Shown: positions 416 through 64,000, counted from the stretch's first letter. The stretch: DNA of 64,000 nt from Euglena gracilis (GCA_039621445.1 CP154954.1:25866954-25930953), one strand, 5' to 3'. Program-made: numbers and translations. The notes: generated from the letters alone by a model not told the origin.

Positions 416-8962
<8,547 letters not shown>

Positions 8963-9833
8963 GGGGGCAGGGCGGACTGCCTGGCCACTGTGAGGCCGCC
9001 CCCGCGTGGCAGGGGGAGGCGGGCGGCCCAGGCAGCGATGATTGGCGCCGGAGGCGGTGGCTCCCGAGGGCTGCCTGTCTGACCCCTCTGCGCGTGTGTC
9101 CACGCGTCATGACCCTGCACTGGTCCCCGCAGCAGGCTTTTTTGAATCCTCCAAAGGGCGGTGGTCCTCATACCGTTTGTTTGGAAATTTTCAGCCAGCC
9201 CGCAGGGTTTTACCCAAGATTGGACCCAAGGAAAGGATTGGTTGCTCCGTCCGTCGAAACCAGGATGTCGCTTAAGCCGGAGCGGGGGGTGTTGAAGCTA
9301 GCCAGCAGCCTTTTTCCAGCCTCTGACCCCCTTCCCCCTATGGACGTTTTTATTTGCGTTTATTTATTGGACGGCAATGGATCTTTCGCTTTCGGAGGTG
9401 CAAGAATGGGTCAAAAATGGGCGAAATTGGGTCGGAAGAGGGCTGGCCAGTGCAAATTTAGGGTCAAAAAATGATTTTAACAACCGGTGGTTTTGGGGGC
9501 ATTTCTCAGTTTCGATTTTTTGGGTGGAAACCCCTCTCCTGGCCCGAGGGGAGTGACTCAAAGCGCTGGAGGGGCGGTTTGAGTTTCTGTTTCCCGGCGC
9601 AAACCATCGCATTCCCAGACCCACCCCGGTCCAAAACGTGCCCCACGGGGCTGCGGTCCCCCCCCTCCTTTAAAGGAGGAAACAAAAGGCCCCACGATGC
9701 GCGTCATCCCGTCCCACCTTCCAAACCGACCGCCCGGCCGCAGGGACCCCAGGGTCCGCCAAAGGAAGCCTGCCCACCGCCGCTGCACTCCGCCCCGGCT
9801 GTCCCTGACCCACACCCACACCCACACCCACAC

Positions 9834-10162
9834 CAGGATTCCATTTAAGGGTTCACAGTGCCTCTGGGGGGGAGGGGGGGCTCGCCTGCAGGTAGTCCAA
9901 ATTTGGTCAGCGGAAATGCTAGTGGACCCCGGGAGGGTCTGCCTGAAGCTATCGAGTGGAAAGTATTTTTCTCCGGTTTTTTTTGTCCCAGTGACCGGGG
10001 CAAAGCTCTGTAATTTTTTTTCATCCCCAAAACCTGTGCAGCGTCGGGGAATTTTTTCCGGTCAGTAAACCCCTGTACCGTCCTGGGGGGGAGTCTAGCT
10101 ATTGGCTTTTTACTGGTGGCTCATAGCCAGTGGATCCCCACAGGTTTTTCAGCAAAAGCCTC
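9834..10162. mobile_element. MITE related to the 58043 intron element
   Basis: Shares CTAG(T/C)..ACC...GGTCTGC and GCT..AGCCAGTGG.CCCC...AGCAA.AGCCT blocks; flanks ACCCACAC / ACACACAC. Confidence 0.55.
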
Positions 10163-10172
10163 ACACACACAA

Positions 10173-11850
10173 CAGGGCGGTCCATAAGGGACGGATTTTT
10201 TTTTTAGTTAAGGACCGCCCCTTAAGGACCGCCCCCCCCCCAATACGCAGAAACCCGAAAAATTGGACCTGAAAAAAAATTCCAGCGCCTTCGGCGCCGG
10301 GTGTTTGTTTTGACCCATTTTGGGACCCATATAGGAGGTCCCCCCAAAAACCCCTCAAAACCCCATTTTTTCACATCTTCCAAAAATTAAAACATTTTCT
10401 CAAAATTGTAGTTTTGAGAGGTTCTCAAAGTTTAGTTTTGAAGCAAAAAAAGCCAATGAAAGTACAAGAAATTTCCAAGAGAAAAAAATGTCAGTAAAAT
10501 TTCGATTGTGTCAAAATTTGGTTCTTTTGGTACTTTTTTTTACCTTCGTTATTTTCCACCCCCCCCCTCCTAAAAACTACCAAATTTAACCCTGAGATCT
10601 TTGAGATTTTTTTGTGAAAAAAATGTGGTTTTCCATCAAAAAATCATGTACCGTGTGGGGGAAAAAATTGGAGGCCGAAAAATTGATTGGTAAAAAAATG
10701 GCGTACAGAAATCAGGGGGGGGGGGAATGCGTTTCGCATTTTTTTTTTTTTTTTTTTTCAAATTTTCCAAATATTCGCATTTTTTCGCTTTTTTTCTTAT
10801 TTTTTGCGTTTTTTTTTTTTTTTTTCTGCTCTTTTTTTTGCTTTTTGGCACATTTTTTCATGATTTTCCAAAATTTTCGCATTTTTTTGACCATTTTTGC
10901 AATTTTTTGCAAAAATTTGAAATTTTCGACTTTTTTTGAAACTTACATTTTCCTCATTATTCTACATAATTTCTTCAAATTTGGTGCCATTTTTGCATGT
11001 TTTTGGGTAATTTTTGCATTTTCGTGATTTTTGTGCATTTTTTCTCGGATTTTGCGCATTTTTGCGCATTTTTTCCAAAAATGCGCATTTTTTGCACATT
11101 TTTTTTCTCTTTTTTTTGCGCATTTTTTCCGAGGCCGGGCGAGCGCATTTTCCCCCCCCCTGCAGAAATCCTGTCAATTTTTTCCGGCCCTTTTTTGAAA
11201 ATCGTGCCAATTTTTTCCCATTTTCCCCCACTTTTTTTGGTTGCCATGGAAGAAATCTTGCCATAACTGGACGTTTTCACATAAAAAATCCTGCCAATTT
11301 TTTCCGGGTCGTTTTCAGGTTTGGCACCAATCTAGCCCCAAATTCCCCCCCCCCCGGTATTTTGGGTTCATTTATCAAAATTTTTTCAATTTTTTTCAGC
11401 CCAAATACCCCGTTTTTCCGAAATTGGTGAAAATGCTGCCCAAAATGTTGCCCAAACCCCCCCAAACCCCATTTTTTCCACACCTTCTAAAATTTCAACA
11501 TTTCTCAAAATTTTGATTTTGAGAAATTTTTGAAGCAAAAAATACCACTGAAAATCCAAAAAAATTCCGAGGGAAAAAATGTCAGTAAAATTTGAATGTT
11601 CCAAAATTTGGTCCCACTTTTTGACCTGCATTTTTTTGACCGCCCTCCTAAAAACTAACAATTTTCAGCCCTAAAATTTTGGAGATTTTTTTGGGAAAAA
11701 ATGTGATTTTCCATCAAAAAACCATGTATTTTGGGTTCATTTTTCAAAATATTTTTTTTCAAAAAGAATTCCCCGGCCAATATCCCCTTTTCCTTATTTT
11801 TTGGTTGAGTGTATGGGGACAGGATTTTTTTTTGCTTAAGGACCGCCCTG
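10173..11850. mobile_element. Non-autonomous hAT-like element (~1.68 kb)
   Basis: TIRs CAGGGCGGTCCATAAG / CTTAAGGACCGCCCTG (15/16); perfect 8-bp TSD ACACACAA (10165-10172, 11851-11858); A/T-tract-rich interior with no convincing ORF. Confidence 0.85.
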
Positions 11851-12599: not shown

Positions 12600-56400
<43,801 letters not shown>

Positions 56401-57189
56401 CTGACTCGCGAGACCCCCAAAAACTTTCCCCCGCTGTGTGGTATGATATATATATGTGTGTCTATCCCTCTCTGTGCACCTTTTGGCACCCTTTTTGCCC
56501 GCCGAACAGTTGTATTCGGCCGCCATCCCTCCCACCCCGTATTGGCGCTCGCTCCACCGCCTGCCTGGCTCTCCTAGCTGGCGAGCTTTGCTGCCACCTG
56601 GCCAGCCTCCCCCCCCCACTTTCCCCTAACCGCCATGTGTGCTGTCGCATACCTGTACTCCTCAGGGCAGCGGTGTGTCGCACTCCCTCCCTGGCCCCCA
56701 GGAGGTCCTGCGAGTGCCAATGTGCTGCTGCTCCTCAACCAAGCTTCCACTTTCCTGACGCTTTGGGGCTGAGGAGAGAGAGCCGTTCGGCCGCCAGACC
56801 CCCAGGTGCCCTCAAAAAGACCTCCTACGGAAAGGCCGGGTCATTATGCAGAACTTCTAGACTCCGGCATAAAGGTTTCTGTTAGGGCTAGGGAAATTTT
56901 CAAGCATCAAGCAAATCGCGTCTGATTGAAGGTGCAGCTGCTCATAGATTTTTGCAGCAAAGGGTGTATCAGAATGAAGCTTTTCCAGGTTGCTGTTATG
57001 GGGATTTTTTTGTGGAATTCACAGAAGCAAAGCATAGTCAGTTAAATCCTGGGATATTTGTCTCAGCAGCTGGATTTTTCACACAGCGTACATTTCCAAG
57101 GCGTTTTCAGAACAAGTCACCTGAATATACACTGATAAAACCCTGAAAACAACATGGAGCATTAATTTTCATACACGTCCAATTTTGTA

Positions 57190-57690
57190 GGGCATACCCA
57201 ACCCCAAGCCCAAAAGCCTCTGCCAGCCATGGGGTGTGGTGATGGGGTGTGCACACTGGCACGACACCGCCCTGCACGCCGCAGCGCACCTGCGCCTGCA
57301 AAATTGAGGCCACATTTTTGAGTGCTAAATTTTGCAATTTGTGACCCCTGCCAAATGTCAGGTCAATTCCCACCCTGGAAAGGAAAGAGGGTTGTCCATA
57401 TTATGTGTGTGTGTTTGTGTACAGGTGTGTGTATACATACACCTTTGGGACGACACGTCCTTGTCAACGTTGGCTGTGGTGCAAGTGAATTCGTCCAGGT
57501 GGACATTTTGGTCCATAAATTTCCAAAATTGCTCCAATTTGCCCAAAATGTCCACCTTGACGGAGTCACTGGCACCATAGCCAACGTTGACAGTGGCATG
57601 CACCACGTGTCGTCCAGAAGGTGGGTGGAAGGCAACCTGCCCCAGTATGGACCACCTCCTCTCCTTTACAGTGAGGGAATTGATTTTGGA
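57190..57690 (-). CDS. Putative two exons of a small minus-strand gene
   Basis: Minus-strand segment 57690-57443, bounded by AG/GT, reads SKINSLTVKERRWSILGQVAFHPPSGRHVVHATVNVGYGASDSVKVDILGKLEQFWKFMDQNVHLDEFTCTTANVDKDVSSQ. It joins in phase to a TTTTGCAG-bounded segment from ~57295 (RRRCAAACRAVSCQCAHPITTPHGWQRLL). Start and stop not resolved. Confidence 0.35.
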
Positions 57691-58023
57691 CTATGAGAAT
57701 ATTGTATTGCTTTTGGGCAACCCTGAATATCCCCCTCCGTGCATGGTCGGTGCTGGGCGTATATGGCCTGGGGGCTCGTTGGGGATTTTTTGTTTCGTTG
57801 CAATTTTGCACAGAGATCAGTGAAAATGGGGTGGGGATAATGATGGAGGGAGAAGTCGGTATGGAAGTCGGTATGGAAAGTAGTAAGTAGTAAGGTGTGG
57901 GTTTGTTCTCCTCTTTTTTTGGCGGTTTGTATCGAGCAGCTTTTGAACAAAAAAAGTAATATCGGCGTATCGTCTGTCGTAGGCCTCGGACCAGTTTTTT
58001 TTTGTTGTTGTGATCTGCCCACC

Positions 58024-60410
58024 ATGCCCAAGAAGGCCAGATCAGTCTATTGCTTAAGGATTCGCAGCACCCCCCGGGCCCCGGGGGGGGGGGGGGGCTG
58101 GAATGCAGCTAGTGCAAATCCTAGCAGACCTCCCTGGGTGGGGTCTGCTAGCAGGGCTAGCTGGTGGAAAAAAATTTTCACTGACCAGTGCAAAACGCCG
58201 AAAAAAAAGTTTTGGGACCCCCAAAAACGGGCCAAAAGCGTCGTTTTTGTCCATTTTGGGGGATTTTTGAACAAAATCAGCCAAAAAAAAATGCATTAAA
58301 AACCTCATTTCCACCTGCGCCAGAGGAATGGTTTTTTCCCAGTCCAGGACCCTCGGACCCCCTAGGGTCCATTTTTTCCAGTGTCTAGCAAAATGGCTAA
58401 ATCAGTGGGCCCCCCCCCCCCCGGGTCCTTGAGCAATAGCCTGGGCCAGACCCACAGCTCCCCAAAAGCGCGGAGCCTCCCCGGCCCCCGCCCCCTCCCC
58501 GGCAGCCACCGTGACCAGGCACCCACGGCCAACCAGAGCCGACCAGGGCCGACCAGGTGCGACCAGTGCCACTTTCAAGACCCCCGTAGGTCAGGGTTCG
58601 GACCAAGGCCGACCAGGGCCAATTTTGCCTTTTGTCGGCTGATTGTGCCCATGGGAATGGTGGACAAGGTCTCCCCCAGCTTGCGTTTTTTTTTCTGGCC
58701 ATTAGTGCCATCTTCACCCATTTCTCCCCAATTTTGGCCCACGTTTGCATTTTTTGCCATTTTTGGCCCACTTTTCCCTGTTTTGATTCTCAAGAGGAGA
58801 AGGATGTGACCAAAAGTGACCAAAGAGTTATCGAAAAGGCCGAAAGTTACCAAAAAAAATCAGCAGAAGCAGCCTCAAGTGGCAAACGAGGTCATTTTAG
58901 GAGCAGAAGGAGTGTGCAAAAGTGCAAAAGTGATCAAAAAGGGGCAAAAGCAGCCTCAAGTGGTCAAAGGCCGTCAAAAGCAACAAAAAAAGTGGCCAAA
59001 ATCGGTACCAAAGCAGCAAAAAAAGTGCCAAAGTGCTGAAAAAGAAGCCAAAAGCAGTCGAAAATAGCAAACAAAAAAAAACGGCCAAAAGTCGGCAAAA
59101 GTGACCAAAAGCAATTAAAAGCAGCAAGAAGAGGCAACAAAGTGTTGGAAAAGGTTTCCAGTTTACAAGTGGTCAAAGGTGTCCAAAAGGCCAAAGTTGC
59201 TTCAAAGTGGCAAAATGTGCGCAAAAATATTTTTAAGAAAAATGACATAAAACACCCTAAATTGGGTGAGAGTGGCCAAAAGTGGGTAAAGGTGGCCAGA
59301 AGCAGTCAAAAGCAACAAAAAAAAATTGTCCAGAAGTCGGCAAAGTGGTGAAAATCAGTGAGAAGCAGCAAAAAAAGTGGACAAAAGCACACAAAAGCAT
59401 CAAAAAGCCAGCAGAAGTCGGCAATGGTGTACAAAGCAGTCAAAAGGAAGTCAGTAAAAGTGGCCAGAAGCAATCAAAAGCAGCAAAAAAAAACATCAGA
59501 CGTGCCCTCAAAGTAGCAAAAAGTGGCGACAAAGTGGTCAAAAGCAACAGAAGCAGCCTAAAACTGCCAAAGATGGCCAAAACAACCTAATGCATAAAAG
59601 TGGCAAAAGTGGGCAAAAGCAACCAGAAAGCACCCGGAAGCACTCAAACTCAATCCCAATCACCAAAAAATAAAAGTGGCCAAAAGTGGCTAAAAGTGAC
59701 TAAAAGTGGGCAAACGTGGGTAAAGTAACAAAAGTGAGCAAATTTTTTTAAAAAAACTGCATTGTATCCCCGTGATTTATGCTCATTTTTTGTTGGCAAA
59801 CCCCCCACCTATGGTCGATGCCGACCAGGGCCGACCAGGGCCGACTATGGCGTCAAAATGGGAAGTGATTATAGGTGCCTGACCGTGGCTTTGCCCGGCT
59901 GCCCTCCCCCCCGCCCCTCCTCGTCGGCCTTCCCCCAGCGTCACGTGCCACCCACGCAACAGGATTCTTCATTGATCAGCAAAAGGTGCTGCCTGGCATT
60001 GGTCATATATTAAGATATATTGAGGTCCATCGCTCTCAACAACACAAGCAACAGATGGCAGTGTTCGAAAAGGAGATGAGAGCTTTGAGTATTTTTAGTA
60101 TTCTTCCCTGTGGCAGCTCAATGGGGTCGCCACACAAGGGTATTATTTTTATGGCGTAAATTTTCTGGGTTTTAAGGCATTTCCAATTTTTAAGGCATCT
60201 ATTTTAAGTCTAAGGGCCGTCCTGGCATCGAACAGGTGTCCTAAATCAAATTATTATTTATATTGTATGCATGTATGTATGTATGTATGTATGTATGTAT
60301 GTATGTATGTATGTATGTATGTATGTATGTATGTATGTATGTATGTATGTATGTATGTATGTATGTATGTATGTATGTATGTATGTATGTATGTATGTAT
60401 GGTATGTATG

Positions 60411-60442
<32 letters not shown>

Positions 60443-60758
60443 TGTGTGTGTGTATGTATGTATGTATGTATGTATGTATGTATGTATGTATGTATGTATG
60501 TATGTATGTATGTATGTATGTATGTATGTATGTATGTATGTATGTATGTATGTATGTATGTATGTATGTATGTATGTATGTATGTATGTATGTATGTGTG
60601 TGTGTGTGTATGCATGCATGCATGCATGCATGCATGCATGCATGCATGTATGTATGTATGTATGTATGTATGTATGTATGTATGTATGTATGTATGTATG
60701 TATGTATGTATGTATGTATGTATGTATGTATGTATGTATGTATGTATGTATGTATGTA

Positions 60759-60793
<35 letters not shown>

Positions 60794-62850
60794 ATGTATG
60801 TATGTATGTATGTATGTATGTATGTATGTATGTATGTATGTATGTATGTATGTATGTATGTATGTATGTATGTATGTATGTATGTATGTATGTATGTATG
60901 TATGTATCTATGTATGTATGTACGTATCCCCTGCTCCACGCCAGTTTCAGGCCGACCACACAGACCCACGCGGTCCCCCCGCCACTGGGCTGCTACTGGG
61001 CGCTGGCCCCGACTCCGACTGGCCCCGACTCCCGTCCCCCATCCAGCCCCCTTCAGCTTCTGACCCCTCCTTAGCCTCAGGGGGCCAGCCAGTGCCGCGC
61101 AACGTGTGCCGCGGCGCCGCAGGGGAAGATGGGGGGATGCCCCGGCATGATTTGCAGGAAAATGGTGAGGAAGTTGCAAACGATGCCGAAGGATGAGAGA
61201 ACAATAAGATAATAACGGAGCAGTGTCAACCATGCCAATACTGTTGAGGTTTTTGGTGCTGTCCCTCGACATTGTTTGGTGTCCCTCACATTGTTTGGTG
61301 GCCGGAAACGGGACCTCCCAACTGGATTTGGGGGGCGTTGTGGGGTCTGAGGACCCCACCGGTCAAGCCGGCAGCTGCTGGGCCCACTCCACCCCACCCC
61401 CAGAGACTTTGCGAAGGTCCACGACACGGGGGGAGGTTCTGGTCAGACCCCCCCCTGTCGGTTTGGGTCGAGGAGGGGGGGATCTTTTTTTTCGACACGA
61501 ATTACCGACAAGGTTTGGACCAAGAATTAAACCCCAAAAAATGTGGTCCTCCCCGAGCTGCTTCCCCCCCCCCTAGCCCGCCAAGGGCTGAGTGGGCGGC
61601 CCCCTTGACCCCCTTTGGAGCCTGGATAGTAATACCCCTTCCCTCCAACCCCACCCACCCCCGCGGCGCCGGGGAGCCCAGCAACCTACGTTCCCCACCC
61701 CCACCCCAAACAAGACCCATGTCTGTTGCAGGAAATCTCCAGGGGGGCGGTCTTATTTTGGATTTTTGCTTGGTCGACCCAGAGGGGTCTTGTTTTTAGG
61801 GTTGGGTTGCCTGCATCCATTTGGGGTGTGGGTCTGTGGGAAGGACAGACCGCGCCACAGCGCGACGGCAGCCCCGCCCCCAACCTGGCGGCTGCTCCGC
61901 CCCCCGACCCCGGCCGGGCAGTGGGGTCCTCGCCTTCCGTGTCTGTCGGTTTCGCTATCAATGTTTGCATGGTTTGGGGGTTTTTGTGGTTTCGGTGTGG
62001 TTTTGTACCCGCTTCGACCCCCAGCTTGGGCCCTCGTTCTGGCTAGGCAGACTCTTATTGCGATGGGGGCAGACTCAAACCCAGGGGGCAGCCTCTCAAT
62101 TTGATTCTGGGGGGTGGGAGCTAAATGGTTGTCCCCGGGTTTGCTTCTTTTCCATTGATACACAGAGCCACCGGCGTAGCCTCCGCTTGGGTTTGAAGCT
62201 TACAACCTTCTCCTCTCCCAACCCGCTCACCTGGGGGGCAGCCTCGCAGAGGTCAATAATTCCAGGCTTGGGCCAAACCCCCGAATTGAGGAAACCAGCT
62301 TCCCGGTGCGTCTCCTCCCCGCCTCTATGGCAACTTGAGGGAGGTCTGGAGAGGGACGTGCGAGATTCAGCGAGGGGGGTTTGGGCGTTCTGAAGAGGTC
62401 CCGCTGTCGCAGCATTTGTACACGGAATATGGAAGCCCCACCCCACAAACACACCCAATGCGCAAACAACACAACACCGCACACACTACACACAACACAC
62501 ATCCAACACACACCCACGCGCAACACACACATAAAACACACACACACACATCCAACACACACACAACACACACTCATTCACGCAACACACACAGACACAC
62601 ACAATATATGCAACCGACCCCTGGCCTGTCCCGACAGGCGGACGTTGCGCACCAGTGCACAGCCACTCCACCCCACCCGCACCAGGAAGGGAGCCGGGGC
62701 GGCAGCCCCCTCCCCCGCCGCCGGCCGGCCGTCAGTGTGGGACGAGCGAGTGCCACAGGCGATGGCGGAAATTGTGCAGGACAGGCGCTTCCCGACGGTG
62801 GAGGCGGTGCGAGTGTTGCTCGTGGAGCGGCACCAGTACGTCCCGCGCAG
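58024..62850 (+). CDS. 5' part of a multi-exon gene for a Pro/Ala-rich protein of unknown function
   Basis: ACC-ATG at 58024. Removing the CAG..CTG introns 58040-58448, 58513-59886 and ~59958-60939 gives a continuous frame MPKKARPTAPQKRGASPAPAPSPAATVALPGCPPPRPSSSAFPQRHVPPTRQFQADH... Probable further exons at ~61843-61920 and 62638-~62850 (..WDERVPQAMAEIVQDRRFPTVEAVRVLLVERHQY). Confidence 0.65.
58040..58448 (+). other. Non-conventional intron that is a complete MITE (58043-58443)
   Basis: TIRs CAGTCTATTGCTTAAGGA / TCCTTGAGCAATAGCCTG (16/18); flanking 8-mers GGCCAGAT / GGCCAGAC; the body is similar to elements at ~4866-5737, 9834-10162 and ~14550-14830. Confidence 0.8.
58513..59886 (+). other. 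Non-conventional intron that is a non-autonomous TIR element (58516-59881)
   Basis: TIRs CAGGCACC / GGTGCCTG, sub-terminal GCCGACCAGG repeats near both ends, flanking 8-mers ACCGTGAC / ACCGTGGC, A-rich degenerate ~10-bp repeat interior. Confidence 0.8.
60264..60925. repeat. (TATG)n/(CATG)n/(TG)n compound microsatellite
   Basis: Direct reading. Confidence 0.97.
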
Positions 62851-63406
62851 GGGTGGGTGGACCATGCCGTTGGTGAGTTTGTGTCCGACTCCCGGAGGGA
62901 GGGTTGCTGAGTGTGGATTCGTTCTGGCTGAGTGGCGGGGGCCAAGAATCGGCCGCCCAGTGCCGAAGGTGCCAGAATTTTTTTTGGAAAATTTGGCCAA
63001 CCCCATTGATTTTCAGCTATTTTGATTTGAGGGGATTGACCCCCCAAGGAGGAAGGTGGGAAGCGACTGACTGGTTTTTCAAAAGCGGAACGTGACCCCC
63101 TCTCTCTTGGGGAAAGGAGGTCGCTAGGAGGTCCTATGGCATGGACTGGGTGTAATTTGGGGGTAGGAATTGGTGGCTAAAGTGATGTCATTGCTGACAC
63201 AGACCTCATGGACAAGGCCGATTGTGTGAAGTTTGTGGCGTTGTTTGATTATATTTGGTGTAGTTGTGGATGGAAATGCACATGAAACAGCATACACCAA
63301 GTTATGAAACCAATTTCATTTATGAATTTGCACGTTTTTGTTGGTGAAATGAACCAAAAGTCACATGTGTGGTACACACCTGGTGTGTTCGATCGTTAAC
63401 AGAAAG

Positions 63407-64000
63407 CAGGGTTTCCCACGAATTGGTGCCACAAATAATCACCAATAATCACGAACCAGCACGAATTTGGGGATTTTCCAAAATCACGAATAATCACGAA
63501 TTCCCACAAACGACCCGGAACAGTTTTTGCTCTCATTGCAGAATGTCTTCTTCTGAGAATGATGCCTCAATCAAGGGGCAATCCTCCTCAGAAGGGAAAC
63601 AAACGTGGAAACGGGGTTAAAATGCCGTCCCAGAAGCGTGCTGCTTAGGTGCCTTTTGTATCATTTTTGGCTTTTTTGTTAGTGGGTTTGGTAATGTTCC
63701 AAGCTTTTAAGCCGAAGTGTGTGGAAGACCTCAAGCTGCTGTCATGATGTTGTGCAATGACGCTGTTCTGTTCACATGTGATCCGACCCTTTCTGCCAAT
63801 GGACCACACACCGTGCAACACAACACTGCACAGTGCAACACCGCACGCTTTGGCAACAACGTCATTCATTGGCGTCACTTTTTGTCTGCAGCTTTGCTTC
63901 TTGTTCAAGATTATTGTCCAATCTAGATGGTCAAAGAGCTTCGTTTTTGATATTTCTGCTGTTGATACAGGTGATCACAAGTCAGACGAGGAGTGTACAT
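63407..64000 (+). mobile_element. Probable left end of a larger hAT-like element
   Basis: Starts CAGGGTTTCCCACGAA followed by clustered (AAT)CACGAA sub-terminal repeats (63417-63500); right end outside the window. Confidence 0.45.

What the first reader, a model, noticed from the sequence alone, without database searches (positions are those of the whole stretch)
58043..58443. One repeat family occurs both as a whole intron and as passengers in other non-coding regions
Seen: the intron body (GGTCTGCTAGCAGGGCTAGCTGGTGGAAA..TTTT..TGACC..; 3' AGCAAAATGGCTA..CAGTGG..CCGGGTCCTT.AGCA.TAGCCTG) recurs at ~4866-5737 (inside a GT-AG intron), 9834-10162 and ~14550-14830. Inference: the same mobile family produces a new intron when it lands in an exon and a neutral insertion elsewhere. 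This is the signature of introner elements.
Basis: partly seen in the sequence, partly recalled or inferred. Interest (0 to 1): 0.75.

Follow-up and report, generated by a model that had tools for sequence, protein, structure and literature searches.

The report
Transposon family shaped like Euglena-type introns
A 401-base mobile element, one of a very abundant family in this genome, has ends that match the unusual "nonconventional" intron signal of Euglena, so it could be cut cleanly out of RNA, though that was not seen for this copy.

Summary
58043-58443 belongs to a real dispersed repeat family: it matches 14538-14832, 4858-5106 plus 5668-5736, and 9844-10045 (nhmmer E 5e-28 to 4e-7). DNA contig depth over it is about 500-1,700 times that of the unique flanks.

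The element is a non-coding DNA transposon. It has 18-nt terminal inverted repeats (16/18) that start CAG and end CTG, and an 8-bp target-site duplication (GGCCAGAT/GGCCAGAC).

The window holds at least seven more CAG...CTG elements with 8-bp duplications. Offset controls gave none.

These ends match the published Euglena nonconventional-intron code, N3-CAG...CTG-N5|purine. Because 3+5=8, cutting by that code removes the element plus one duplication, on either strand.

One probable RNA contig lacks exactly such a unit, the neighbouring 1,366-bp element 58516-59881. Its next exon ends 3 nt before a CAG.

For the focal copy no spliced junction (58039|58449) was seen. The same contig runs unbroken from the downstream exon into the element's last 77 nt.

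So the introner-like reading is plausible for the family and unproven for this copy. It is not a GT-AG intron. That the organism is a euglenid is inferred, not shown.

The parts
58035..58042 (.). Left copy of the 8-bp target-site duplication (GGCCAGAT)
   Evidence: It matches 58444-58451 at 7 of 8 positions, directly next to the inverted-repeat ends.
58043..58443 (+). E1, the focal 401-bp non-coding inverted-repeat element (MITE)
   Evidence: Summed DNA contig depth is 97,000-344,000 against about 200 in the flanks.
58043..58060 (+). 5' terminal inverted repeat of E1, starting CAG
   Evidence: It matches the reverse complement of 58426-58443 at 16 of 18 positions. The predicted RNA stem pairs the two ends.
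58426..58443 (+). 3' terminal inverted repeat of E1, ending CTG
58444..58451 (.). Right copy of the 8-bp target-site duplication (GGCCAGAC)
58040..58448 (+). Predicted nonconventional intron: N3 + E1 + N5, 409 nt, followed by purine G at 58449. Predicted only; no excision was observed.
   Evidence: Sequence read against the published code. No joint was seen.
58024..58026 (+). No support was found for it.
   Evidence: RNA depth is zero just upstream. Frame continuity carries no weight.
58449..58512 (+). Transcribed segment between E1 and E2 ('exon A')
   Evidence: table 8. X15 record 13 covers 58367-58507 without a break, at depth 27.9.
58516..59881 (+). E2, a second CAG...CTG element of 1,366 bp. 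It has an 8/8 inverted repeat and the 8-bp duplication ACCGTGAC/ACCGTGGC (58508-58515 and 59882-59889). It is missing from the RNA-like contig.
   Evidence: table 8: record 13 joins 58507 to 59882. The joint can slide 0-6 nt, which includes 58512|59887, the N3/N5 register.
59887..59932 (+). 'Exon B', 46 nt, in the same contig
   Evidence: table 8 (the piece is listed as 59882-59932, because the joint can slide).
59933..59938 (+). CCC+CAG directly after exon B, the start signal (N3+CAG) of a further nonconventional intron. It fits on the + strand only.
   Evidence: The contig leaves the stretch exactly at 59932.
4866..5737 (+). Family copy about 70-75% identical to E1. It keeps CAG...CTG ends and has no recognisable duplication. 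A 292-bp element is nested at 5352-5643 with the perfect duplication AGGGGGGT.
9834..10162 (+). Family copy inserted in a CA-rich repeat. Its 3' end has mutated to CTC. Flanks are ACCCACAC/ACACACAC (7/8, in a simple repeat).
14526..14837 (+). Family copy with the 5' end and core but no 3' part

Best explanation
58043-58443 is one copy of a very abundant, non-autonomous cut-and-paste DNA transposon (a MITE). The family is hAT-like in two respects: an 8-bp target-site duplication and CAG termini.

At the DNA level a transposase encoded elsewhere would bind the inverted repeats and insert the element at an 8-bp staggered cut. This step is inferred.

At the RNA level the inverted repeats, extended by a G-run and a C-run, fold into a long stem that brings the two ends together. 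This is a fold prediction.

The stem carries the CAG/CTG pair that the nonconventional splicing system of euglenids uses. That system cuts 3 nt before the CAG and 5 nt after the CTG, in front of a purine. This comes from the published code.

Since 3+5 equals the duplication length, such a cut removes the element plus one duplication. The transcript returns to its sequence before insertion, whichever way the element points. Any intact copy that lands in a transcribed exon would therefore be a ready-made intron, and copies elsewhere would be plain insertions.

At this locus the element lies at the 5' end of a + strand transcript whose next two introns follow that code. Excision of this particular copy is predicted, not shown.
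For: - Repeat family.
- Abundance: depth 97,000-344,000 against about 200.
- Inverted repeat 16/18 and duplication 7/8 at the exact ends. The chance of at least 7/8 at one fixed register is about 4e-4 (my calculation, assuming equal base frequencies).
- Window-wide scan: of 132 CAG...CTG pairs with a perfect 8-nt inverted repeat, 6 have an adjacent 8-bp repeat with at most 1 mismatch (4 perfect). Four controls with offset flanks gave 0, 0, 0 and 0. Among duplication lengths 2-12 the excess is clearest at 8; lengths 6 and 7 show only slight excesses over their controls.
- RNA fold of 58030-58460: the ends pair, -190.4 kcal/mol, z -7.05, 0 of 100 shuffles as good.
- Published code, 3 nt before CAG, 5(-6) nt after CTG, then a purine, tested by knock-ins: PMC12501133. 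E1 fits it on both strands.
- X15 record 13 (2,116 nt, depth 27.9) skips 1,374 nt, which is E2 plus 8. The skip fits a register allowed by the code. Its next exon ends 3 nt before a CAG.
- X15 behaves like RNA. It has zero depth where both raw RNA runs have zero, and its repeat-to-unique depth ratio is about 37 against about 1,700 in DNA.
- A recently gained nonconventional intron in one E. agilis strain has 8-nt direct repeats at its junctions (PMC4770533, passage).
Against: - No junction 58039|58449 and no back-splice appear in any of the 4 runs laid.
- X15 record 13 carries E1's last 77 nt joined to the exon, while E2 is absent from the same contig. Either E1 is not removed, or is removed poorly, or the transcript starts inside it. 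Assembly could also have pruned a very short first exon.
- The raw RNA runs were sampled at about 5-6% and give a depth of only about 1 on the flanking exon, so a rare or even a common junction could be missed.
- X15 is only guessed to be RNA. The E2 gap could be a DNA presence/absence allele. E2-internal sequence is present in X15 at depth 1.5-25.
- E1's fifth terminal base is C, not the G of the recalled hAT consensus. No transposase was found in the window (0 Pfam domains above cut-off in 378 of 414 ORFs).
- The organism is coded, so its being a euglenid is an inference.
Confidence: 0.65

Rival explanations
1. E1 is only a MITE sitting in the promoter, 5' leader or outron of the downstream gene. 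Transcription, or spliced-leader addition, starts inside or after it, and this copy is never spliced as an intron. Its fit to the intron code is then a by-product of the CAG/CTG termini that this transposon group has anyway.
For: - The contig runs from the exon into E1's 3' part without a break.
- RNA depth is zero in 57383-57994 in X21 and X24, and 0-0.11 in X15.
- The upstream expressed gene has stops in all three frames before 56720, so the downstream transcript must begin around E1.
- The flanks show no coding signal or homolog.
Against: - A first exon of 45 nt or less could escape both the 153-nt depth bins and contig assembly.
- Elements with only these code features were spliced when knocked into an exon (PMC12501133, sections 8 and 11).
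- This rival covers one locus only. It does not remove the family-level reading.
Confidence: 0.25
2. E1 is a conventional GT-AG spliceosomal intron (58045-58439 or 58045-58449) made by the insertion, as in classical introners.
For: A GT lies at 58045-58046 and AGs at 58438-58439 and 58448-58449, with an ATG at 58024.
Against: - These borders would leave 14 or 4 extra bases out of the 409 inserted, so neither choice restores the frame (arithmetic).
- No such joint was seen in any run.
- The neighbouring junctions in the same transcript have no GT-AG in any allowed register.
Confidence: 0.03
3. The 1,374-nt gap in the X15 contig is a DNA-level empty site, from an allele, strain or paralog without E2, and not splicing. 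In that case the window offers no RNA evidence that CAG...CTG elements are removed.
For: - X15 is labelled 'RNA? (a guess)'.
- The gap equals E2 plus one duplication exactly, which is also what an empty site looks like.
- E2-internal sequence is present in X15 at depth 1.5-25.
Against: - X15 coverage follows the two true RNA runs and is zero in unique DNA.
- The contig leaves the genome again at 59932, exactly 3 nt before a CAG. An empty site does not explain that.
- DNA run X1 holds E2-internal contigs at roughly single-copy depth (115-233).
Confidence: 0.07

Closest known systems
Nonconventional introns of euglenids (Euglena agilis / E. gracilis code 5'-N3CDG...CH'GN5-6|R; PMC12501133, PMC3935182, PMC4770533)
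   Same: E1 has CAG at +4..+6 and CTG at -8..-6 of the predicted intron, base-paired ends, a purine after the 3' spacer and direct repeats at the junctions. An 8-nt junction repeat was reported for one recently gained intron.
   Different: In the passages I read, those introns are defined from transcripts of single genes or from an annotation. They are not assigned to multi-copy transposon families with an 8-bp target-site duplication. Here the elements are defined as repeats in mostly non-genic DNA, and excision of the focal copy was not observed.
Introners (intron-generating transposons; Gozashti et al. 2022 PMC9860276 and 2025 PMC12130899)
   Same: A non-autonomous inverted-repeat family whose insertion plus splicing would leave the mRNA unchanged. 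An Aureococcus family with an 8-bp duplication is described there.
   Different: Introners are spliced by the spliceosome at GY-AG sites that the element carries or borrows from the duplication. Here the predicted cut uses no GT-AG, lies outside the element by 3 and 5 nt, and would work in both orientations. The word 'euglen' does not occur in the main text of the 2025 survey.
hAT-superfamily MITEs (Ac/Ds type), including Ds acting as a new intron in maize (cited in PMC3935182; details recalled)
   Same: An 8-bp target-site duplication, short inverted repeats and termini starting CAG. Of nine elements compared, four start CAGGG at both ends and a fifth (31028-31364) at one end only.
   Different: No transposase was found here. 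E1's fifth terminal base is C. An 8-bp duplication also occurs in other superfamilies (recalled), so the superfamily is not settled.
MITE-derived non-canonical introns of the tunicate Fritillaria borealis and of diplonemids (mentioned in PMC11282704 and PMC12621601, passages)
   Same: Inverted-repeat ends, non-GT-AG borders and a proposed MITE origin. Diplonemid introns have inverted G- and C-rich ends like those of E1.
   Different: They come from different lineages and have different border rules. No sequence relation was tested.

Membership tests
Dispersed repeat / MITE (non-autonomous inverted-repeat DNA transposon) | Several diverged copies at unrelated sites | tested here: met
   Four clear copies in the window. 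DNA contig depth is 500-1,700 times that of the unique flanks.
Dispersed repeat / MITE (non-autonomous inverted-repeat DNA transposon) | Terminal inverted repeats with a target-site duplication directly next to them | tested here: met
   Inverted repeat 16/18 and duplication 7/8. In the window scan, 8-bp duplications appear only at the true flanks, 6 against 0 in the controls.
Dispersed repeat / MITE (non-autonomous inverted-repeat DNA transposon) | Short and without coding capacity | tested here: met
   401 bp. ORFs overlapping it gave no Pfam hit.
hAT superfamily | 8-bp target-site duplication | tested here: met
hAT superfamily | Terminal consensus YARNG (recalled, not from a call) | tested here: inconclusive
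   E1 has CAGTC and CAGGC, so the fifth base does not fit. Of the nine elements listed, four have CAGGG at both ends and one (31028-31364) at one end only.
hAT superfamily | A matching autonomous element that encodes a hAT transposase | not testable with these tools
   No genome is held. No transposase domain was found in the 378 of 414 window ORFs scanned.
Euglenid nonconventional intron | Three nucleotides, then CDG, at the 5' end | tested here: met
   GAT+CAG at 58040-58045, read against the code.
Euglenid nonconventional intron | CH'G, then 5-6 nt, then an exon that starts with a purine | tested here: met
   CTG at 58441-58443, then GGCCA, then G at 58449, read.
Euglenid nonconventional intron | Ends brought together by base pairing | tested here: met
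   The predicted minimum-energy structure pairs the two inverted repeats, z -7.05. This is a prediction only.
Euglenid nonconventional intron | Actual removal from the transcript (junction, circular RNA) | tested here: not met
   No joint was seen in the 4 runs laid, and the contig shows the 3' border unspliced. Raw-read depth was very low, so this is weak negative evidence.
Euglenid nonconventional intron | The host is a euglenid | not testable with these tools
   The organism is coded. It is inferred only from two code-conforming junctions in X15 record 13.
Introner (Gozashti et al. 2022 definition) | A group of annotated introns with similarity reaching near both splice borders | not testable with these tools
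   There is no annotation and no genome. Only one stretch could be laid.
Introner (Gozashti et al. 2022 definition) | Consistent spliceosomal splice sites (GY-AG) | tested here: not met
   GT-AG choices leave 14 or 4 extra bases. Neighbouring junctions have no GT-AG in any allowed register.

The most novel reading that the evidence does not exclude
Euglenid nonconventional introns, as a class, are insertions of currently or recently active hAT-like MITE families. The fixed 3-nt and 5-nt spacers of the nonconventional splicing code are the RNA counterpart of the transposase's 8-bp staggered cut. Every insertion into a transcribed exon, in either orientation, is therefore erased exactly from the mRNA. 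The same families also litter non-genic DNA as ordinary repeats. That would make this an introner system running on a non-GT-AG splicing pathway.
Probability: 0.45. Interest if true: 0.8.

Novelty: new variant of a known kind. Interest (0 to 1): 0.62.

Why it matters
The origin of euglenid nonconventional introns is still called unclear. In E. agilis they make up 71.8% of introns (PMC12501133, abstract). A MITE origin was proposed in 2013 and repeated in 2024 and 2025 (passages). In the passages I read it was argued from inverted repeats and junction repeats, not from identified transposon families.

This window shows bona fide multi-copy elements with inverted repeats and an 8-bp duplication. 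Their ends sit exactly at the code's +4 and -6 positions.

The window also gives a simple arithmetic reason (3+5=8) for the spacer lengths and for the many 'slidable' junctions.

If a genome-wide census confirms this, the long-standing question becomes directly testable. Introner biology would then extend to a non-spliceosomal-looking pathway.

Six literature searches found no paper that reports repeat-family membership, an 8-bp target-site duplication or a hAT assignment for these introns. Supplements were not seen and may hold relevant tables.

Tried and rejected
- Whole genome: none is held.
- The look-up of sequencing runs: no RNA holder listed. Raw RNA runs were found by species label only.
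- Generic repeat finder: swamped by microsatellites.
- Pfam on 378 of 414 stop-to-stop ORFs of at least 70 aa: only two hits, both below cut-off (Ephrin_rec_like 21.0 bits against 23.1; FAM27 20.6 against 30.8). The 36 ORFs left out lie in the 77-bp tandem array.
- Rfam at gathering threshold and ARAGORN: nothing.
- Metagenome scan with a family motif: 120 loci, 0 of 120 related by blastn at E <= 1e-5, so these are chance matches. The fixed-spacing form of the motif matched only E1 in the window.
- Protein searches with the frame that runs through 58433-58636 and with 61011-61193, hoping for transcript-derived proteins that would show the N-terminus: 7 and 1 candidates, none significant. Only the 'near' length range was searched.
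- ORF continuity from the ATG at 58024 across the predicted excisions: rejected as evidence, because all three frames of the two exons are open.
- Removing a possible nested element at 14809-15958 did not recover a 3' end for copy 14526.
- A control scan over all 64 terminal trinucleotides was dominated by microsatellite and homopolymer artefacts and could not be interpreted.
- The purine rule after N5/N6 is met by 7 of 8 elements. I expect about 6 of 8 by chance, so this says nothing.
- The 340-nt skip 55961-56300 in the upstream gene fits neither GT-AG nor the CAG/CTG code in the register reported. It is left unexplained.

Full report
1. Observation

The generic repeat finder was swamped by microsatellites, so I used targeted searches.

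With 58043-58443 as query, nhmmer against the window found:
- 14538-14832 (E 5.4e-28)
- 4858-5106 (2.3e-20)
- 9844-10045 (7.9e-10)
- 5668-5736 (4.4e-07)

All are on the + strand. blastn identity is 70-75% over 150-205 nt. The multiple alignment shows conserved, non-simple blocks. A profile built from the four copies also picks up eight weaker core fragments on both strands. The similarity is real and is not only low complexity.

2. Anatomy

The element (E1) starts with CAG at 58043 and ends with CTG at 58443.
- Its first 18 nt match the reverse complement of its last 18 nt at 16 positions.
- Directly outside lie GGCCAGAT (58035-58042) and GGCCAGAC (58444-58451), a 7-of-8 direct repeat.
- Folded as RNA, 58030-58460 pairs its two ends in a long stem. 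The stem is made of the inverted repeats extended by a G-run and a C-run. Energy is -190.4 kcal/mol, z -7.05, and 0 of 100 shuffles fold as well.
- No ORF over it has a Pfam match.

This is the anatomy of a non-autonomous cut-and-paste transposon (MITE).

3. The class is general in the window

I scanned the window for CAG...CTG pairs 40-4000 nt apart with a perfect 8-nt inverted repeat. There are 132 such pairs.
- Six have an adjacent 8-bp direct repeat with at most one mismatch, and four of these are perfect.
- Four controls, with the flanks moved out by 10, 20, 30 or 40 nt, gave 0, 0, 0 and 0.
- Among duplication lengths 2 to 12 the excess is clearest at 8. Lengths 6 and 7 show only slight excesses over their controls.

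The elements are 5352-5643 (nested inside family copy 4866-5737), 8459-8582, 10173-11850, 19776-20079, 31676-32177 and 58516-59881 (E2). With a looser inverted-repeat rule, 31028-31364 and E1 are added.

Of the nine elements compared, four begin CAGGG at both ends and a fifth (31028-31364) at one end only. From memory this is the Ac/Ds-type terminus. Together with the 8-bp duplication it points to hAT. No transposase was found, and 8-bp duplications are not unique to hAT.

4. Abundance

No genome is held. Fourteen DNA-like runs of one coded organism hold 0.56-0.60 of the sampled words of 54001-64000.

Laid on 55700-60260, DNA run X1 gives a summed contig depth of 344,121, 278,772 and 96,973 in the three bins that cover E1. 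Unique flanks give about 170-230. The tool warns that this is not a copy number. It does show that sequences at least 93% like E1 are present on the order of a thousand times. A unique-depth X1 contig (57696-58071) crosses E1's 5' border, so the insertion is present in that sample.

5. What the ends mean

Nomura et al. 2025 (PMC12501133; abstract and sections 5, 8, 11 read) defined by knock-in experiments the code of Euglena nonconventional introns. It requires exactly 3 nt, then CAG (CDG), and at the other end CTG (CH'G), then 5 (tolerating 6) nt, then an exon that starts with a purine. The two motifs must base-pair.

E1 fits this code. GAT+CAG lies at 58040-58045. CTG+GGCCA lies at 58441-58448. 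G follows at 58449. It fits equally on the opposite strand.

The new point from the window is arithmetic. 3+5=8 is the duplication length. Excision by the code would therefore remove the element plus exactly one duplication copy (409 nt) and restore the sequence from before insertion, in either orientation.

This also explains two published observations. Most introns in E. agilis are 'slidable' because of short direct repeats (84.4%). One recently gained intron has 8-nt junction repeats (PMC4770533, passage).

6. RNA evidence near the element

X15 is labelled 'RNA?' by the tool. Two things in its coverage point to RNA. It is zero where both true RNA runs are zero. Its repeat-to-unique depth ratio is about 37, against about 1,700 in DNA.

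Its record 13 (2,116 nt, depth 27.9) covers 58367-58507, jumps to 59882-59932, and then leaves the laid stretch.
- The jump skips 1,374 nt and can slide by 0-6 nt.
- The register 58512|59887 is N3 + E2 + N5 followed by G.
- E2 (58516-59881) has an 8/8 inverted repeat, CAG...CTG ends and the duplication ACCGTGAC/ACCGTGGC.
- No register gives GT-AG.
- The piece ends at 59932, and 59933-59938 reads CCC+CAG, the 5' signal of another such intron. This fits on the + strand only.

So a + strand transcript with code-conforming junctions runs through here. This is also my only basis for calling the organism a euglenid, which remains an inference.

The E2 gap could instead be a DNA allele without E2. 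E2-internal sequence is present in X15 at depth 1.5-25, which could be unspliced RNA, excised circles, other copies or DNA.

7. The focal copy itself

Nothing shows that E1 is removed.
- No joint 58039|58449, nor 58044|58440 or 58044|58450, is listed for any of the four runs.
- Record 13 carries E1's last 77 nt joined directly to the downstream exon.
- Raw RNA depth is zero in 57383-57994 in X21 and X24.

The upstream expressed gene (55731-55960 plus 56301-56720) has stops in all frames before 56720. The downstream transcript therefore starts around E1.

Two readings remain.
- A very short first exon (45 nt or less, with the ATG at 58024) is followed by E1 as an intron. In that case assembly may have pruned the short branch, and the thin raw-read sampling (about 5-6% of each run, depth about 1) missed the junction.
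- Alternatively, transcription or leader addition begins inside E1, and this copy is not an intron.

The open frame from the ATG through both predicted excisions is not evidence, since all three frames of the two exons are open. Two protein-database searches aimed at transcript-derived proteins found nothing.

A conventional GT-AG reading leaves 14 or 4 extra bases and has no support.

8. The other copies
- 4866-5737 keeps CAG and CTG but has no recognisable duplication. It carries a younger nested element.
- 9834-10162 ends CTC, so it fails the code.
- 14526-~14837 lacks its 3' part.

Whether any of them lies in an intron could not be tested.

9. Comparison and novelty

A MITE origin of these introns was proposed by Milanowski et al. 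in 2013 (PMC3935182, passages). At that time they stated that no transposable elements had been identified in euglenid genomes. A 2024 review (PMC11282704, passages) and Nomura et al. 2025 ('origins... remain unclear') repeat the idea.

The introner surveys define introners by similar annotated introns with spliceosomal sites (PMC9860276). The main text of the 2025 survey does not contain 'euglen' (PMC12130899).

Six searches found no paper that assigns these introns to repeat families, to an 8-bp target-site duplication or to hAT. I did not see any supplements.

10. Verdict

The family is a transposon whose ends are built so that any transcribed copy should be a precise nonconventional intron. 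For this copy, that excision is unproven, and one contig mildly contradicts it.

Noticed in passing
58516-59881: E2 is a 1,366-bp CAG...CTG element with an 8-bp duplication. It has 10-nt subterminal repeats (CCGACCAGGG type) at both ends and an A-rich interior made of AAAAGTGGCC-like units. In DNA its ends are high-copy and its interior roughly low-copy. It is missing precisely from one RNA-like contig.
   Followed up: partly
8459-8582 and 31676-32177: Two very young-looking MITEs, 124 bp and 502 bp. Each has near-perfect inverted repeats (18 of 20 and 19 of 20 terminal positions match) and a perfect 8-bp duplication (CCCGTGCC and ATTCACCC). The first plus its duplication is 132 nt, a multiple of three. 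It sits at the single stop between two long same-frame ORFs (7531-8493 and 8494-9474), but the upstream ORF is partly microsatellite.
   Followed up: partly
55731-56720: An expressed upstream gene is seen in X15 record 9 and in the raw RNA reads. Its 340-nt skip 55961-56300 fits neither GT-AG nor the CAG/CTG code in the register reported. A loose end at 55731 suggests a further upstream exon.
   Followed up: partly
57995-58453 (RNA reads from family copies): In the stranded RNA run X24, reads matching E1 lie 2.5-7 to 1 in the orientation expected for + strand RNA. All four clear copies in the window are also on the + strand. This hints at an orientation bias, although the code itself is symmetric.
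   Followed up: no
57077-57382: Another high-copy repeat. Summed DNA contig depth is about 37,000-43,000 against about 200 in the flanks. It was not characterised.
   Followed up: no
32701-34848: A tandem array of a 77-bp unit, about 25 or more copies, 96-99% alike.
   Followed up: no
60264-60927 and 55456-55683: Very long microsatellites: (TGTA) x 166 and (CA) x 113. The first lies inside the intron that starts at 59933.
   Followed up: no
whole window: No Pfam domain above cut-off in 378 of 414 ORFs of at least 70 aa, no tRNA and no Rfam family in 64 kb. The region has very little recognisable gene content and is rich in repeats.
   Followed up: yes
10173-11850: A 1,678-bp AT-rich CAG...CTG element with a perfect 8-bp duplication (ACACACAA), inserted next to family copy 9834-10162 in the same CA-rich tract. 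One of its inverted repeats contains the reverse complement of part of E1's inverted repeat (a TCCTTAAGCAA-like stretch).
   Followed up: no
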